Source of the DNA: Chiloscyllium plagiosum
Lineage: Eukaryota
Direction: 5' to 3'
Assembly: GCF_004010195.1 (NCBI RefSeq)
Contig: NC_057718.1
Location: forward strand, 51,231,941-51,295,940
DNA length: 64,000 nt
Both the position numbers and the translations under genes were made by a program. Positions 10,372 to 57,600 of this stretch are shown here, piece by piece. Every line of letters starts with the position of its first letter. Positions within the stretch are counted from its first letter, which is position 1. A model generated the notes under the pieces. That model made no database searches and was not told the DNA's origin. It saw only the letters and a program-made list of their open reading frames with translations.

Positions 10372-10590
10372 AGTAGTTGGTTAGCTCAGTTTGTAACACA
10401 GAGTGATACCATCAGCGCCACTTCAATTCCCAGATTGGCTGAGGTCACCATGAAGGTCTCACCTTCTTAGCCTCTCCCCTCCCCTGAGGCATGGTGATTC
10501 TCACTTTAAACCATCACCAGTCATCTCTCTCTCTCTCTCTCTAATGACAGAGAGTCATCTGGTCCTCTGGGACTGTGGCAAACTTACTTT
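10372..10590 (+). mobile_element. tRNA-derived SINE with internal (TC)n
   Basis: ggttagctcagtt A-box, ttcaattccc B-box remnant, (TC)n at 10524-10541; flanked by a DeuSINE-like tail fragment. Confidence 0.6.
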
Positions 10591-10902
10591 TATCGTGAGT
10601 TGCTTGAATTTGCAGTACACACATTGGCTGTGTTTGTGATTACCAACCAACACTAATTATATTTTAATTCCGTTTGGAACATCCCGAAGACATGACAATG
10701 CGACATGAATATATGTTATCTCTGTTATCTGACACTACCCCATTTCTTAACTTCCTTCTTCTGTTTTGTCACCTGGAAATCACTTTATGGAGGAGAAAGT
10801 GAGGTCTGCAGATGCTGGAGATCAGAGCTGGAAATGTGTTGCAGCAGGTCAGGCAGCATCCAGGGAACAGGAGAATCGACGTTTCGGGCATAAGCCCTTC
10901 TT

Positions 10903-11283
10903 CAGTCACAAGTAAAATGTGCAAACTCCACTCACACAGTCACCCTGGTGCTGTGAGGCAGCAGTGCTAACCACTGAGCCACCCTGCCTCCCATAATAAT
11001 TGCAAGTTGCTATATTGCCATGCTCATAGAGTTGCTATGTAGTAAATCAGATAATTCCCCCTTTAAATCTGGTAAGGTAGATATCTACAAGTATTCACCG
11101 AAAATACCGGTGCAACTCAGCAGGTCTGGCAGCATCTGTGAAGTGGAGCAGGGTGTCACGGAGGGAACAGTCCCTACAGAATGCTGACAGTGATGGGGGG
11201 ATAAAGATGTTTTTAGCAGTCACATCCTGCTGGAAGTGGTGGACATGGAGAGAATAGATCCTTTGAATATGGTGGCTAGTGGA
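10903..11283 (+). repeat. 381-bp direct duplicate of 11749-12129
   Basis: Alignment by eye at offset 846: 3 substitutions, no indels. Confidence 0.95.
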
Positions 11284-11320
11284 TTCCTGAAGAAGGGCTT
11301 ATGCCCGAAACGTCGATTCT
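11281..11320 (+). ncRNA. Minimal type I hammerhead ribozyme motif (PLE type)
   Basis: CTGAAGA-a-GGGC-ttat-GCCC-GAAAC-GTC with imperfect stem I ggattc/gattct; palindromic ACGT in place of stem III. Confidence 0.65.
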
Positions 11321-11534
11321 CCTGTTCCCTGGATGCTGCCTGACCTGCTGCGCTTTTCCAGCAACACATTTCCAATCACTTTATGGATGTGATTAATTCA
11401 AGACATTTATTTCCACTTTGGAGAAGGTATACATGAGAAAGTTACATGTAACTATCTTGACTACACCTCCCTAGAATTTTGTGTAAGAGATTTCAGTTAG
11501 GATCTGTCATTCGAAAGAAATCCAACAGACTGAC

Positions 11535-11838
11535 AGATTAAATTAGATTAGATTAGATTCCCTAAAGTGTGGAAACAGGCCATTCAGCCCAACCAGTCCA
11601 CATGGAACCTCCGAAGAGTAACCCACCCAGACCCATTTCCCTCTGACTAATGCACCTAGCACTATGGGCAATTTAGCATGGCCAATTCACCTGACTTGCA
11701 CATCTTTGGACTGTGGGAGGAAACCGGAGAACCTGGAGGTAACCCTCGCAGTCACAAGTAAAATGTGCAAACTCCACTCACACAGTCACCCTGGTGCTGT
11801 GAGGCAGCAGTGCTAACCACTGAGCCACCCTGCCTCCC
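11535..11838 (-). mobile_element. HE1 (V-SINE family) SINE, B-box region deleted
   Basis: (attag)n tail, central tggccatgctaaattgccc on the minus strand, tRNA head. Confidence 0.9.
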
Positions 11839-11944
11839 ATAATAATTGCAAGTTACTATATTGCCATGCTCATAGAGTTGCTATGTAGTAAATCAGATAA
11901 TTCCCCCTTTAAATCTGGTAAGGTAGGTATCTACAAGTATTCAC

Positions 11945-12735
11945 CGAAAATACCGGTGCAACTCAGCAGGTCTGGCAGCATCTGTGAAGTGGAGCAGGGT
12001 GTCACGGAGGGAACAGTCCCTACAGAATGCTGACAGTGATGGGGGGATAAAGATGTTTTTAGCAGTCACATTCTGCTGGAAGTGGTGGACATGGAGAGAA
12101 TAGATCCTTTGAATATGGTGGCTAGTGGAATGCAAAATCAGGACACAGAAACCTCCGTGACATCCTAGCCCATTCGTCTACACATTCTCACTCTCCCATG
12201 GCACCTTTGCATGCCTATTCACCTCCTCTTTATTAAAAGCTCCAAACACATCTCCCAGGTGAAGCAGAATTTTAATTGTACTTCTTTCAATCTTGTTTAC
12301 TGTATTCACTGCTCACAGTGCAGTGTCCATCACCAAAAGCAGAGTGGGTGACTATTGTGTTGGACACCTCCACTCTGTTCTTGAGAATAAACCTCACCTT
12401 CCAGATGCTTGCCATTTCAATAAGTCACCTTGCTCTCATGCTAACATTTCTGTCCTGTACCTGCTGTAATGTTCTGCAAGTATAATACTAACTTGAGGAA
12501 GACGACCTCGTTTTCTACTTAGGCACTATACAGTCTCCTACAAAGCCTCCTTTGCCCCTTCTCTACCTCTGTCAAAAGTATATATTAAAAAGCTTCTCAT
12601 CACTTTCACTTCTTAAGAAGGGTCTGATCAGACTCAAAATGTTAACTCTGTTTCTCTCTCCAAAGATGCTGCCAGACCTGCTGAGTTTTCTGTACTTGTT
12701 TCAGATTTCCAGCATCTGCAGTATTTTGGTTTATC
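11945..12735 (+). mobile_element. Older Penelope-like element 3' part with inverted 5' segment and GIY-YIG remnant
   Basis: 12271-12321 encodes FNCTSFNLVYCIHCSQC; minus-strand 11987-12150 encodes IQRIYSLHVHHFQQNVTAKNIFIPPSLSAFCRDCSLRDTL (RT-EN linker); gatgctgccagacctgctgag present in both orientations. Confidence 0.8.
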
Positions 12736-13927: not shown

Positions 13928-14107
13928 TAGGAGAAAGTGAGGACTGCACATACTGGAGATCAGAGCTGAAAATGTGTGCTGGAATAGCGCAGTAGGTCAG
14001 GCAGCATTCAAGGAGCAGGAGAATCGACGTTTCGGGCATGAGCCCTTCTTCAGGAAGCCCATCTTCCTGCTGCGCTGACCTGCTGCGCTTTTCCAGCAAC
14101 ACATTTT
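13928..14107. mobile_element. Penelope-like fold-back mini-element
   Basis: Inverted arms; 16-bp TSD ctgccct(g/a)ttgccttt at 13912-13927 and 14108-14123. Confidence 0.88.
14021..14056 (-). ncRNA. Minimal hammerhead ribozyme motif, sense to the neurexin pre-mRNA
   Basis: Minus strand ttcCTGAAGAagggctcatgcccGAAACGTCgattc; intact core, short stem I. Confidence 0.6.
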
Positions 14108-21470: not shown

Positions 21471-22014
21471 AACTTCCCCATGCCCTTGGTGGGAAAGGGA
21501 TTGGCAGCACAGGCAGAGGGCAGATCTCATTCCCAATAATCCCAGCTCCATTATTCTCAATACCAGGTCTCTCAACTTGGCACAGTGCTTTAAAATAATG
21601 GACACTCCCATACTCCACCAAGCAATCTTCACCATTTTGCGTGCTGTGTTCACACATGTTGATCATTATCCTTCCACTTACCACCAGTGGCTGCAGAACG
21701 TGGCAATTAAGTGGGTATTAGTTGCTCATGTAACATCCTCAATTGGCTAAAAGTGGGAAGCAGGTTCATGGACTTTCATTACCAATGTTTAGTCAATGTG
21801 GAGGCAGCGAGCACCCATACCTCACCATCCTGCCTGATTTAATGTCCCTCCATTCCCCAAATCATCTCATAGGACAGCATTGAATTATACCCAAAGAATT
21901 TCCAATTAGGGTGAGGAAGTAAGGATGTAGAGCTTGGGAAATATCTGAAATTAATTACCCTTGCATCATTTTACATTTTATTGGCTATTTCATTTTACCT
22001 GGTTAATCTCTTTT

Positions 22015-22208
22015 AGGAGAAAGTGAGGACTGCAGATGCTGGAGATCAGAGCTGAAATGTGTTGCTGGAAAAACACAGCAGGTCAGGTAGCATCCAAGGA
22101 GCAGAAGAATCAACGTTTTGGGCATGGCGTATGCCCGAAACGTCGATACTCCTGCTCCTTGGATGCTGCCTGACGTGCTGTGCTTTTCCAGCAACACATT
22201 TTCAGCTC
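22015..22208. mobile_element. Penelope-like fold-back mini-element
   Basis: Near-perfect palindrome centred at about 22128; TSD tacctggttaat(c/t)tc at 21996-22010 and 22210-22224. Confidence 0.88.
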
Positions 22209-23184
22209 GTACCTGGTTAATTTCCCTTGTTTAATTCATGTGATTTAAATTTTCATAATCATTTTCCAAGGGCAGACATCCAGCATGTCCATTAAAACTG
22301 GTTTGTTATTGACAAACTGAGTGATTTACTGAGTGTTGCCAAAGGCATTTTCCTGGCAACTGCAAAATTTGCAATCTCCAGAGTTTCAAACCTCAATTGA
22401 GAAAGAGAAAGGTTATTGATAAGCTGCAAATATTCATGACGATTTGTTCAACCCACTATCAGAACTAGCTGTTACATATTCATTAAGCTTTCAATCTTAA
22501 GAATTTTGGAGAAAATAATTAATTCCTTTGTAGTCTGCTGTTTTTTGTCAGAGAATCAAATAGGTTGATTTTAAAAAAGCTAGTCAACAAATGAATTGTT
22601 CCACTGCAGCGTTGTGTAACCAAACCTCAGGTGTATCCAAACTAATGTGAAAATGAGAGAATAATCCGTCTTAATTTTGTTATATCATTCAATGATATTG
22701 TGATTCTTTAGGCTGTTTTTACAAAGCCCTTTTGTGTCATAGCTTCAGCCTCTTTGTAGAATGTCAATGTTGCTTGCTTCAGATATATAGATATCACAAA
22801 GCAGGTGACAACCCTTAAATAAAACTGCTAGATTCACTAAGATGGTTGCTGAGAAGACTGACGTTTGACTGACGTTAAGTTTTAATGAACTGGCAGGATT
22901 CCTTTCAGATTGCTATGCTTCAGATGTAAACAATTCCAGAATTGCACAAAACTAATACAAAAACAGCTGCAGAAGACTTTCATGATGCATGAGAGCCTCT
23001 CCAGGAGGTACTCTTGCACTGTTTTGAGTACCCAGCACTACAATATAAATCCAAGCTGACATTCTGCACACAGTAAAACTTGTTAACCTTGACTAGATAA
23101 CATGTTGCTTGTTAAGAAGAAAATTCATTTTGTCTGGATGTTTTGTGTGAGCAAACCATTTATCATCTGTATTTGATTACTTAC

Positions 23185-23366
23185 AATGTGAAGCTGTAGG
23201 TAGTCTCCAAGCCCAGCAGAACTATCTACACGCACCAAAATGGCATCTTTTACATGCGTGTCAAATCCCACTGCCAGTCTGTCTGCTCGGGTGCTTGGTC
23301 TGTCATTGGGAGGCCATGTATAAGTGATTAGTCCACCACCTCGGCTAAAGATGTATGTTGTGCCAG
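23185..23366 (-). CDS. nrxn2: Neurexin internal coding exon (first exon shared by alpha and beta isoforms, start of LNS6), most like neurexin-2
   Basis: Acceptor ttttcttttctcag and donor gtaagt; 182 bp, phase 1 to 0; encodes (x)[60 protein letters not shown]. Neurexin identity is clear. Paralogue call (about 0.7) rests on LITYT, LAVGF, TH and DYLQ versus NRXN1, and TTYIF, PPND and DYL versus NRXN3. Confidence 0.95.
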
Positions 23367-46224: not shown

Positions 46225-47398
46225 TTTTGATCAGATGGACCAATGGGCTGAGGAGTAGCAGATGGAATTTAATTTCAATAAACATGAGGTGTGACATTTT
46301 GGAAAGGCAAATCAGGACAAAAGTTATACACATGGTAAGGTCCTGGGGAGTGTTGCTGAACAAAGAGACCTTGGAGTGCAGGTTCTTAGCTCCTTGAAAG
46401 TGGATAGAATGTTGAAAAAGGCATTTGGTATGCTTGACGTTATTGGTCAGTTCATTGACTATAGGAGTTGGGAGATCATGTTGCAACTGTATAGGACATT
46501 GGTTTGGCCACTTCTGGTGTATAGCATGGAATTCTGGTCTCCTGGCTATAGGAATGATGTTGTCAAATTTGAAAGGGTTCAGAAAAGATTTACAAGGTTG
46601 TTACCAGGGTTAGAGGGCTTGAGCTATGGGGAGAGGCTGAGTAGGCTGGGGCTAATTTCTGTGGAGCATTGGAGACTGAGGGGTGACCTTATAGAGGTTT
46701 ATAAAATCATGAGGGGCATGGATAGGATAAATAAAGAAGAAAATAGGGTAAATACCTGATCCTAGTTCCAATCTTCCCCAGCTCAGCACTATCCTCATGA
46801 CCTGTCCCATCTGTCCATCTTCCTTCCCACCTATCCGCTCCACCCTCCCCTCCAACCTATCACCTTCACCGTCACCTACTGCACTCTCAGTTACCTTTCC
46901 CCCAGCCCCACCCCCTTTCATTTATCTCTCCACCCCCGACGCTCCCAGACTCATTCCTAATGCATGGCTTTTGCCTGAAACTTCAATTTTCCTGCTTCTC
47001 GGATGCTGCCTGACCTGCTGTGCTTTTCCAGCACCACACTCTTGACTCTAATCTCCAGCACCTGCAGTACTCACTTTTGCCCACATAAGCAAGGTCTTTT
47101 CCCCAGTTTGGAAGAGTCCAAAACTAGAGGGCATAGGTTTAAGGTGAGAGGGGAAACATATAAAAAGGACCTAAGGGGCTACTTTTTCACAATGAGAGTA
47201 GTGCGTGTATGGAAAGACTGCCAGAGGAAGTGGTACAATCACAGCATTTAAAAGGCTTCTGGATGAGTATATGAATAGGAAAGGTTTAGAGGAATATAGG
47301 GCAACCGCTGGCAAATGGAACTAGATTAGGTTAGGATATCTGGTCAGCATGGACGAGTTGAACAAAGGGTCTATTTCCATACTGTATTGCTCTATGAC
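46225..47398 (+). mobile_element. CR1/HER1 LINE 3' part interrupted by a Penelope fragment
   Basis: ORF 46376-46759 LYRTLVWPLLVYSMEFWSP...LRGDLIEVYKIMRG; resumes at about 47085 through ctctatgac. Confidence 0.9.
46755..47081 (+). mobile_element. Penelope-like 3' terminus (pLTR)
   Basis: C-rich 3' UTR, decayed hammerhead, ends ccagcacctgcagtactcacttttgcc. Confidence 0.85.
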
Positions 47399-53659: not shown

Positions 53660-54762
53660 TATTAGAGTCATAGAATCATAGTCATACAGCACAGAAACAG
53701 ATCCTTCGATCCAGCTCGTTCATGATAACCAAGCTTCCCAAACTAAACTAGTGATACTTGCCTAAGTTTGAGCCATATCCTTCTAGACCTTCCCTTTTCA
53801 AGTACCTGTCCAAATGTCTTTTATGTGTAACTGTATTTGTAGCTTCCTCTGGCAGTTCATCCACATATAATCCACCCTCTCTGTGATAACATTGCCCCTC
53901 ATGTCTCTTTCAAAGCTTTCTCCTCTCACCTTAAAATTTTGCTCCCTAGTTTTGAATTCCCTCACCTGAGGGAAAACAAACTTTGCTATTCACCTGATCT
54001 ATGCCCCTCATGATTTTATAAATGTCGACAAGGTCACCCCAAACTTCCTACAGAGGAGTGAAAGAAGTCCCAGCCTATCCAGCCTCTCCCTCTAAACCCT
54101 CTAGTCCTAGCAACATCCTGGCAATCTTTTATGACCCCTCTCCAATTTAATAATGTCCTTCCTGTAGCAGGGTGACCAGAACTGCACACCATACTCGAAA
54201 AGTGGCCTCACTAACATCCCTTATAACATCAACATGAAGTCCAAACTCCTATAGTCTATGGTCTGAGCAATGAAGGAAAATGTGTTAAACACTTTCTTAA
54301 CCAATCTGTCTACCTGTGACACAACTTTCAAAAAAAATGTATTGGAACCCCTCGGTCTCTCTTTTCAACAACACTACCAGGAGGAGAAAGTGAGGACTGC
54401 AGATGCTGGAGAAACAGAGTGGAAAGGGGTGGCGTTGGAAAAGCACAGCAGGTCAAGCAGCATCCGAGGAGCAGGATGGCTTTCCTGATGAAGGGCTTAT
54501 GCCCAAAATGTCGATGCTCCTGCTTCTTGGATGCTGTCTGACCTGCTGTGCTTTTCGAGTGCTACCCTTTTCAAAACTACCCACTACCTTACCATTAACT
54601 ATATAAGTCCTGCCCATATTTGTTTTACCAAATGCAACACCTCGCATTTATCCAAATTAACCTCCATCTGCCACTCAGATCCCATTGACCCAATTGATCA
54701 ATATCTCTTTGTAATCTTAGAAAACTTTCTTCACTGTTGATTATTCCACCAATTTTATAACA
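53660..54762 (-). mobile_element. CR1/HER1 LINE 3' part
   Basis: tagagtcata tail; gaccagaactgcacaccatactc (EYGVQFWS antisense); interrupted at 54383-54574. Confidence 0.88.
54383..54574. mobile_element. Penelope-like fold-back mini-element inside CR1
   Basis: ggagaaagtgaggactgcagatgctgg arm and inverted arm with decayed hammerhead ctgatgaagggcttatgccc. Confidence 0.85.
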
Positions 54763-56429: not shown

Positions 56430-57600
56430 GAAAACAGAGAAGGATTAAATAGGGATTTTCAAGTTAACAGGTTGTTGGTAGTGGGATGCTGAAAGGATCA
56501 TTTCAGATGCTTTAGCTATTTATAATTGGGAATAATTAATAACCCAGATGAAGAGTCCAAATACAACATATTCACATTGACTGACAATGATAAAGCTTCC
56601 TAGGTATGTAAGCTCAGAGGAGGATACAAAGAGGTGAACTTTCTCAGATTATTGGTGGATGTGCCAGGAGTTGGGAAGGCAGCAAAATTCCAGAAGTGTG
56701 ACATCAAGAGAGGAGCCCAATGAGCTTGCACAAGGGACAATATGGTATGGCAGCAATAAAGATGGAAGCTTGATCAAGCCATTTTATTCACCAATGATCA
56801 TCCAGTAGCCGCCTCCACACTAATGTGAGGTCATGCTGGGAACGAGTGAAACATGGTGGCCTCCTATTAATTCAAGATTGGTCTTGCTTTATGGATATTC
56901 CATTGCCAACAGAAGGACCCTCCTCACCACAACATCAACAGCCATGTCAAGATAAGAATGCTACTCAATGACCTCTGACCTTGAAACAAGGAAGCATGCA
57001 TTTGATTTAGATGAAGGGCTTTTGCCCAAAACATCAATTTTACTGCTCCTCGGATGCTGCCTGAACTGCTATGCTTTTCCAGCACCATTCTAATCTGGAC
57101 TCTGGTTTCCAGCATCTGCAGTCATTGTTTTTACCTACAATGTGGATTTTCACTGATTGATTTCTGGGATGAGAGGGACTGTGAGAAAAGATGGAGTAGA
57201 ATGGACTTAAGACTCTTCAGAGTTTAGAAGAATGAGGAGTGCTCTCATTAAATCTCACCGAAGGTCTGAGAGCATTTATCATGTACTTTCCCCTGTATAA
57301 AACTTTGGATCAGGGGATTTTCATTCTCAGTGCAATGGATTTGTGATTTTGGTCTGTAGAGGACAGAGAATTCTTTCTCAGAAGTGTGAATCTTTGGAAT
57401 CTTGTACCATTGAGGCTATTGATATTCAGTCAGTGAGTAAAATCAAGGATCAAATCAATAGATTTTTGGAATCTCGAGGAATCAACAGATATTGGAATCA
57501 AACATGAAATAGGGATTAAGGTTAAGAACCACCCGTAATCTTAATAAATGGTCCATCAAGCTGAAGGGGTTGTGTGCCTGTTCCTATTTATTATTCTCTT
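56430..57600 (+). mobile_element. Old CR1 fragments interrupted by other repeats
   Basis: 56430-56640 decayed RT core; 57150-57600 gagtttagaagaatgagg and 3' UTR. Confidence 0.55.
57008..57136 (+). mobile_element. Penelope-like 3' terminus
   Basis: gatgaagggcttttgccc...ccagcatctgcagtcattgtttttacct. Confidence 0.8.

What the first reader, a model, noticed from the sequence alone, without database searches (positions are those of the whole stretch)
10778..12129. Penelope-like fold-back insertion that copied 381 bp of neighbouring intron between its inverted arms
Seen: TSD (14 bp), PLE 3' end on the minus strand (10792-10905), a 381-bp copy of 11749-12129 with 3 transitions, an inverted PLE arm (11284-11373), then the TSD. 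The left junction has a cag microhomology exactly at the hammerhead CUG. The cargo is a locus-specific mosaic (part HE1, unique DNA, part old PLE), so it is best explained as copied in cis from about 360 bp beyond the insertion site. Inference: during target-primed reverse transcription the RT left the PLE RNA for a local minus-strand template, either the bottom DNA strand or the nascent neurexin pre-mRNA, then folded back. This would be a retroelement-driven local duplication mechanism that could copy exons or enhancers.
Basis: partly seen in the sequence, partly recalled or inferred. Interest (0 to 1): 0.8.

Follow-up and report, generated by a model that had tools for sequence, protein, structure and literature searches.

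The report
Penelope insertion copies neighbouring intron DNA
A young Penelope-type jumping-gene insertion in a neurexin intron carries, between its two inverted arms, a 381-base copy of DNA lying 361 bases away; sister insertions show the same thing, so these elements likely duplicate nearby DNA while their two separately made halves are being joined.

Summary
There is a 14-bp TSD, a long arm (10792-10905, minus), a 381-bp direct copy of 11749-12129 with 3 transitions, and a short arm (11283-11373). The unique part of the cargo occurs only twice in the genome. A related organism has the empty site.

The fold-back reading fails: each arm holds sequence the other lacks. All 186 of 186 sampled two-arm, TSD-bounded copies pair one long-tail arm with one short-tail arm, and 71 are non-nested. 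This fits twin priming from the two RT start sites reported for Poseidon (PMC11167929). The join at the hammerhead CUG is no hotspot.

Local capture recurs in 8 of 186 elements (5 of 174 outside targeted picks). The copies are 17-381 bp long and lie 35-1,027 bp away; 7 of 8 are direct and 7 of 8 lie on the short-arm side. They are about as old as their arms.

Best reading: a cDNA end switched to a local template before the two halves were sealed. DNA versus nascent pre-mRNA is unresolved. L1 and R2 show the same outcome rarely; I found no report for PLEs. New variant of a known kind.

The parts
10778..10791 (+). Left copy of the 14-bp target-site duplication
   Evidence: single copy at the empty site in organism B
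10792..10905 (-). Long PLE arm (pLTR 3' end with the ~35-nt tail), 5' end at element position +5 (CTG); lacks 11 nt present in the other arm
10903..11283 (+). Cargo: 381-nt direct copy of 11749-12129; CAG (10903-10905) shared with the long arm, A (11283) shared with the short arm
11283..11373 (+). Short PLE arm, complete from +1 (ATTCC, preceded by G), ends at the short RT-start class
11287..11314 (+). Minimal hammerhead core (CTGAAGA, stem II, GAAAC, GTC); core consensus is recalled, no Rfam match
11374..11387 (+). Right copy of the target-site duplication
11535..11845 (.). Older SINE (HE1-type; name recalled) whose 3' part is the start of the donor
11749..12129 (+). Donor of the cargo, 361 nt beyond the right TSD; SINE end, unique DNA and an old PLE fragment
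23182..23364 (-). Neurexin exon (start of the LNS domain shared by alpha and beta forms); places the insertion in a downstream intron of a minus-strand gene
   Evidence: (E 6e-31 to neurexin-2-beta)

Best explanation
This is one Penelope/Poseidon-type insertion whose two inverted arms were likely made separately, one from each of two staggered nicks, and whose 381-bp middle was likely copied from the neighbouring intron by a cDNA end that switched template before the halves were joined. Steps: (1) the endonuclease nicks both strands 14 nt apart (TSD shown; nicking inferred). (2) Each 3' end primes reverse transcription of the short pLTR RNA, one at the distal start site (long arm) and one about 35 nt further in (short arm) (pairing shown, priming inferred). 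(3) The short-arm cDNA runs to the RNA 5' end at ATTCC, probably adding a C opposite the cap (inferred). (4) The long-arm cDNA stops at ...CTTCAG, pairs by CAG with a bottom-sense template 361 nt beyond the break and is extended by 381 nt. I favour the RT itself as the polymerase (about 60%), and DNA (about 60%) over nascent neurexin pre-mRNA (about 40%); both inferred. (5) The two ends anneal through 1-2 nt (A/GA) and host end-joining seals the site (inferred).
For: Non-nested arms at this locus. 186 of 186 two-arm TSD-bounded elements have one long and one short arm; TSD is 14-16 nt in 147 of 186; 71 are non-nested (no duplicates). Arms of one element share 57 minor variants against a mean of 7 (max 19) under random pairing, 18 of them in non-nested pairs. 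Poseidon protein nicks and extends both strands and starts RT at two sites that define the tail (PMC11167929). Empty site in organism B. Seven further local captures sit at or near the arm-arm joint: L199 129 bp, L165 107, L226 273 inverted, L383 49, L359 35-45, L042 19, L059 17. In a check against 392 sources (1.7 Mb; L226 and the window cargo tested in part) each was found only at its own locus. Arm-arm differences (8 of 562) and cargo-donor differences (10 of 1,001) in seven of these elements are alike, so capture is about as old as insertion. In L199 the strand leaves the long-arm sequence, copies the local DNA and resumes PLE sequence 6 nt further on. RNA-type cargoes (a SINE in L198, PLE ORF pieces in L239 and others) occupy the same position. 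Base before ATTCC genome-wide: G 3,444, A 1,634, T 646.
Against: Both junctions carry microhomology, so the priming end cannot be read from this locus; in L165 the longer match (4 nt) is at the short arm. If the short arm primed, the template would be top-sense and could not be neurexin pre-mRNA. The side bias (7 of 8) is not significant, and a ninth 13-nt case (L098) lies on the long side. The G excess may partly come from microhomology with the partner arm. Palindrome centres do change after insertion (11-nt gap here; centre deletion in the C18 copy). The sample is chosen by exact patterns, mostly on contig C1, and is biased to young copies and +1 starts. The inner junctions were not seen in listed contigs.
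Confidence: 0.7

Rival explanations
1. An ordinary palindromic PLE insertion came first; its centre later broke (hairpin or cruciform nick) and host repair copied 381 bp of nearby DNA into the gap.
For: Cargo sits at the symmetry centre; in L199 it sits at the base of the loop. Centres are unstable (11-nt gap). Snap-back pieces of about 10 nt in L059 and L226 resemble polymerase-theta scars (recalled; listing).
Against: Cargo and arms are of like age. RNA-derived cargoes use the same position. The short arm is intact to about +1 in most cargo elements. No cargo-free allele was seen, though only 2 runs of organism A were laid.
Confidence: 0.15
2. One reading: one RT copies the PLE RNA, jumps to the local template, then folds back on its own cDNA to make the second arm.
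For: Arms of one element share rare variants (both arms of L165 carry a variant found 11 times in the genome). Self-priming has been proposed for PLE inverted repeats (PMC3846280). Snap-back is seen for R2 (PMC11371274).
Against: The short arm holds ATTC and 11 nt absent from the long arm here. 71 of 186 elements are non-nested and the second arm always ends in the short class.
Confidence: 0.06
3. Tandem duplication of short arm + TSD + spacer + donor, followed by deletion of one short arm + TSD + spacer, gives the same order without templated capture.
For: It yields the same final order for a direct copy (sequence logic).
Against: It cannot give the inverted capture in L226 or the left-side one in L059, and needs breakpoints at the arm joint in each of 8 cases.
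Confidence: 0.04
4. Assembly artefact.
For: No listed contig spans an inner junction; the outer junctions are entered by only 21 and 26 letters.
Against: Three substitutions separate cargo and donor; X2 carries the cargo alleles; exact TSD; empty site in organism B; seven like cases elsewhere.
Confidence: 0.03

Closest known systems
EN+ Penelope/Poseidon insertion unit with inverted pLTR and one-sided 30-40-bp tail (PMC3846280, PMC8557442: passages read; PMC11167929: parts 1-2 of 4 read)
   Same: TSD, inverted 5'-truncated arm, tail on one arm only, hammerhead in the pLTR. Arkhipova 2013 also notes unrelated sequence captured between solo pLTRs with TSDs.
   Different: In the passages read, captured DNA was not traced to a donor next to the target, and the inverted arm was explained by self-priming or left open. 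Here the donor is local and the arms are non-nested.
L1 twin priming with locally templated DNA or pre-mRNA co-insertion (Nam 2023 PMC10191854; Mendez-Dorantes PMC11702581; passages read)
   Same: Two RT products from the two ends joined by microhomology. Local foldbacks in 0.3-0.4% of events and one pre-mRNA co-insertion (Nam); three insertions with sequence templated from nearby DNA (Mendez-Dorantes).
   Different: L1 twin-primed parts are adjacent pieces of one RNA with one poly(A) end; here both arms cover the same ~90 nt from two fixed start sites. Local capture is about 3% in this sample, direct copies dominate, and the events are fixed in an assembled genome rather than seen in somatic clones.
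R2 'snap-back' and 'extra template' 5' junctions (PMC11371274; passages read)
   Same: A finished cDNA end primes extra synthesis on itself, on nearby target DNA or on another RNA before joining.
   Different: Single-primed, site-specific, engineered system; no second cDNA arm.
Polymerase-theta templated insertions / SD-MMEJ (search listing only; details recalled)
   Same: 1-4-nt microhomologies, local donors, short snap-back pieces.
   Different: Recalled as mostly short and close to the break; copies here reach 381 bp at up to 1 kb.

Membership tests
EN+ Penelope-like element (Penelope/Poseidon) | C-terminal GIY-YIG endonuclease with CxxC between GIY and YIG, upstream of the pLTR | tested here: met
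   In longer copies of the same family: L375 ORF runs from YCILCTRCGLLYIGET into the arm sequence; Pfam GIY-YIG E 2e-4 (L375) and 1.8e-3 (L231), both just under the curated cut-off. Not present in the window insertion itself.
EN+ Penelope-like element (Penelope/Poseidon) | PLE-type RT in the same ORF | tested here: inconclusive
   YIDD and GIY-YIG lie in one 407-aa frame (L231); PADK and MDIQSLYTSIP in L239; Pfam RVT_1 only E 0.099. No tree was built, so the clade name Poseidon is by likeness.
EN+ Penelope-like element (Penelope/Poseidon) | Inverted pLTR with a 30-40-nt tail on one end, and a TSD | tested here: met
   186 of 186 long+short; TSD 14-16 nt in 147 of 186
EN+ Penelope-like element (Penelope/Poseidon) | Minimal hammerhead motif in the pLTR | tested here: inconclusive
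   Core letters and stem II present (fold z -0.52); no hammerhead among Rfam matches at E<=1; minimal HHRs are described for Poseidon (PMC4209133); cleavage not testable
Fold-back (self-primed) inversion | Second arm contained within, and copied from, the first | tested here: not met
   Non-nested here and in 71 of 186
Twin priming (L1-type) | Two RT products of opposite polarity, one per target end, intact TSD, microhomology at the inner joint | tested here: met
Twin priming (L1-type) | Non-overlapping, adjacent template segments | tested here: not met
   Both arms cover the same 77 aligned positions: works like twin priming, is not the L1 form
Pre-mRNA co-insertion | Template sense equals host transcript; spliced or edited donor | tested here: inconclusive
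   Fits here only if the long arm primed. T/A skew has the predicted sign at 3 of 6 other loci (-0.061, -0.049, -0.040) and is near 0 at 3; no spliced donor seen
Transduction from a source element | Donor flanks a source PLE elsewhere; cargo recurs in dispersed copies | tested here: not met
   Two places only, no arm beside the donor; contrast L225

The most novel reading that the evidence does not exclude
PLE insertion is an obligately paired reaction, one cDNA per nick and one per RT start site, in which the long-arm RT regularly jumps onto the nascent host transcript beside the break. This would make the element a transcription-guided local duplicator with hundreds of such copies in this genome (extrapolated from 5 of 174 and 29,004 exact core matches), occasionally able to copy splice or regulatory sequence.
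Probability: 0.3. Interest if true: 0.75.

Novelty: new variant of a known kind. Interest (0 to 1): 0.5.

Why it matters
How PLEs make an inverted pLTR with a tail on one side is stated as open in PMC8557442. The invariant long+short pairing and the non-nested arms give a direct, testable answer (paired priming from the two start sites found in vitro). The local cargoes are footprints of the joining step and can be counted by the hundred in one genome to ask whether RT or a host polymerase, and DNA or nascent RNA, is used. They are also a small, recurrent source of local duplication. At this locus itself the copy is intronic SINE and unique DNA with no sign of function.

Tried and rejected
Genome-wide spacer extraction was not possible, so candidates came from lists of the first 100 matches of 7 plain patterns (one search gave all 11). 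Rfam found no hammerhead; the two weak hits (mir-1253, TP73-AS1) are chance. Motif scans for the host exon failed until an exon-shaped scan found it. Gene orientation at other cargo loci: no convincing exon in 100 kb around L199 or L165; T/A skew is weak (window -0.025; sd 0.057 in 108 control loci of 6 kb); L226, L359, L383 and L059 had only about 35 kb each. X17 showing only donor alleles and no cover at the TSD is no proof of an empty allele. Dropped from the local-capture count: L003 (single arm, 136 bp inverted, 95%, looks like a repeat; 1 of 72 single-arm insertions), L197b (65 bp direct, 100%, no TSD found), L098 (13 nt, outside the automated set), L013 (93-bp duplication, no TSD), and 10-18-nt matches in L139, L191, L233, L361, L393 (chance or PLE-derived). 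L042 is kept but lies in SINE-like sequence. Hammerhead cleavage as the source of arm ends: only 3 long and 1 short arm of 186 start at the cut site (+33). Paper searches for PLE twin priming or local capture listed no such report; subscription papers and supplements (e.g. Fig. S10 of PMC11702581) were not seen.

Full report
OBSERVATION. All coordinates hold. A 14-bp TSD (10778-10791, 11374-11387) encloses a minus-strand arm (10792-10905), a 381-nt direct copy of 11749-12129 with three transitions, and a plus-strand arm (11283/4-11373). The SINE at the donor's left end continues beyond the copied part, so 11749-12129 is the original. The unique part occurs twice in G000, at cargo and donor. 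Contigs of 4 runs were laid on 10450-11740. Organism B has one contig joining the left flank to the right TSD and flank with 21 letters between: the empty site, with no duplicate. Organism C's contigs stop at the TSD on both sides. X2 (organism A; it may be the assembly's own study) enters both outer junctions and carries the cargo alleles. Cargo and donor differ by 0.8%, against 16 differences in 550 letters (2.9%) to organism B, so the event is recent.

WHAT THE ELEMENT IS. The 35-nt core has 29,004 exact copies. Longer copies carry an ORF with YIDD and a GIY-YIG domain with CxxC that runs into the arm sequence (Pfam scores just under cut-off). The arm has a minimal hammerhead core (consensus recalled, no Rfam match). 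It is an EN+ Penelope-like element; 'Poseidon' and 'shark-type genome' are by likeness, recall and earlier AI notes. The host is a minus-strand neurexin: exon at 23182-23364, laminin-G exons on both sides of the window on the same strand.

THE ARMS ARE NOT A FOLD-BACK. The left arm has the longer tail; the right arm has ATTC and an 11-nt stretch that the left lacks. Neither can be the other's template. From 392 sources I recovered 186 distinct two-arm, TSD-bounded elements. All 186 pair one long arm with one short arm; in the first 151 the ends fell at positions 125-131 and 82-109. In 71 the long arm is at least 6 nt more 5'-truncated than the short one, in 24 the reverse, and 91 lie within 5 nt. 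The two arms share minor variants far above random pairing (57 against 7), so they come from one source or one RNA. Frangieh et al. (PMC11167929, parts 1-2 of 4 read) found that Poseidon protein nicks and extends both strands and starts at two sites that define the tail. The simplest reading is paired priming, one cDNA per nick and per start site (inference). Arm 5' ends pile at ATTCC (+1), in a sample partly chosen for that; position +5, the CUG, shows no peak. The base before +1 is G 3,444, A 1,634, T 646 times, which suggests, but does not prove, a capped RNA starting there.

LOCAL CAPTURE RECURS. Of the 186 elements, 149 have under 10 nt of non-PLE sequence at the centre, 14 have 10-49 and 23 have 50 or more. 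Eight carry a local copy: this one (381, direct, 361 nt away), L199 (129, direct, 330), L165 (107, direct, 35), L226 (273, inverted, 1,027), L383 (49, direct, 525), L359 (35-45, direct, 704), L042 (19, direct, 871, SINE-like) and L059 (17, direct, 88, plus a snap-back). Leaving out the 3 window elements and 9 fetched for long spacing gives 5 of 174 (2.9%), 2 of them over 100 bp. Each cargo was found only at its own locus among the 392 sources. Seven of 8 donors lie on the short-arm side and 7 of 8 are direct; the side bias is not significant. Junction microhomology is 0-4 nt. In seven elements arm-arm differences total 8 of 562 and cargo-donor differences 10 of 1,001, so capture and insertion are of like age. 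Other centres hold a SINE (L198), PLE ORF pieces (L239 and others) or distant DNA (L225), which points to template switching at this position during insertion.

MECHANISM. Shown: TSD, arm classes, non-nesting, local donor, empty site, recurrence. Inferred: double nicking, paired reverse transcription, a switch of one cDNA end onto a local template, and sealing by microhomology. Which end primed is not fixed. For the long arm: CAG (3 nt) here, and L199, where the strand returns to PLE sequence 6 nt after leaving it. For the short arm: L165's 4-nt match and the complete, G-preceded short arms. Only long-arm priming fits neurexin pre-mRNA. Under that model T/A skew has the predicted sign at L199, L165 and L059, is near zero at L226, L359 and L383, and is clearly opposite at none: suggestive, inconclusive. 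Snap-back pieces in L059 and L226 look like host end-joining (recalled). Later repair of a broken palindrome centre remains the main rival (0.15), since centres do lose sequence.

COMPARISON. The inverted pLTR with a one-sided tail is known, and capture of unrelated DNA between solo pLTRs was noted without a donor (PMC3846280, PMC8557442; passages). L1 gives local foldbacks at 0.3-0.4% and one pre-mRNA co-insertion (PMC10191854, passages) and three locally templated insertions (PMC11702581, passages). R2 shows snap-back onto nearby target DNA (PMC11371274, passages). The outcome is therefore a known kind. What I did not find in print is its occurrence in PLEs, its rate of about 3%, or the strict long+short pairing as evidence for paired priming. 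Earlier AI notes on this genome describe the same mini-elements and one more local capture; they are unchecked leads, not support.

VERDICT. Real, recent and recurrent. New variant of a known kind; interest 0.5.

Noticed in passing
L225:2997-4825 (G000:C1 about 240,000-241,830) and L426 (G000:C18 about 20,418,700-20,420,400): A TSD-bounded two-arm insertion whose 1,533-bp middle is the flank of another two-arm element on a different contig (100% over 521 nt; 97.8% over 1,731 nt including arms). Looks like re-mobilisation of a read-through RNA of the palindromic mini-element with 1.5 kb of flank. The C18 copy lacks about 35 nt at its centre.
   Followed up: partly
L198/L197:1492-1875: A 201-bp SINE copy (96% to dispersed copies, not local) sits between the two arms: a likely RT jump onto SINE RNA.
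   Followed up: partly
window 13929-14106 and 21997-22208; also 54380-54559, 2567-2720: Older two-arm PLE insertions without cargo, and single arms at 46953-47088 and 57010-57087.
   Followed up: partly
L008, L080, L024, L133, L022, L018: Short tandem re-copies of the TSD or of internal PLE pieces at the 5' joint, as if a polymerase re-primed several times.
   Followed up: no
L275:1613-3767 and L116: Two-arm insertions with 0.9-1.9 kb non-local middles, partly N; source not traced.
   Followed up: no
L039 and L040 (G000:C1 3,888,225 and 3,891,909): The same single-arm insertion with the same TSD appears twice 3.7 kb apart: a later tandem duplication or an assembly duplicate.
   Followed up: no
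window 10778-11387 in run X17: A second study of organism A showed only donor alleles and no cover at the TSD; the insertion may be polymorphic, unproven.
   Followed up: partly
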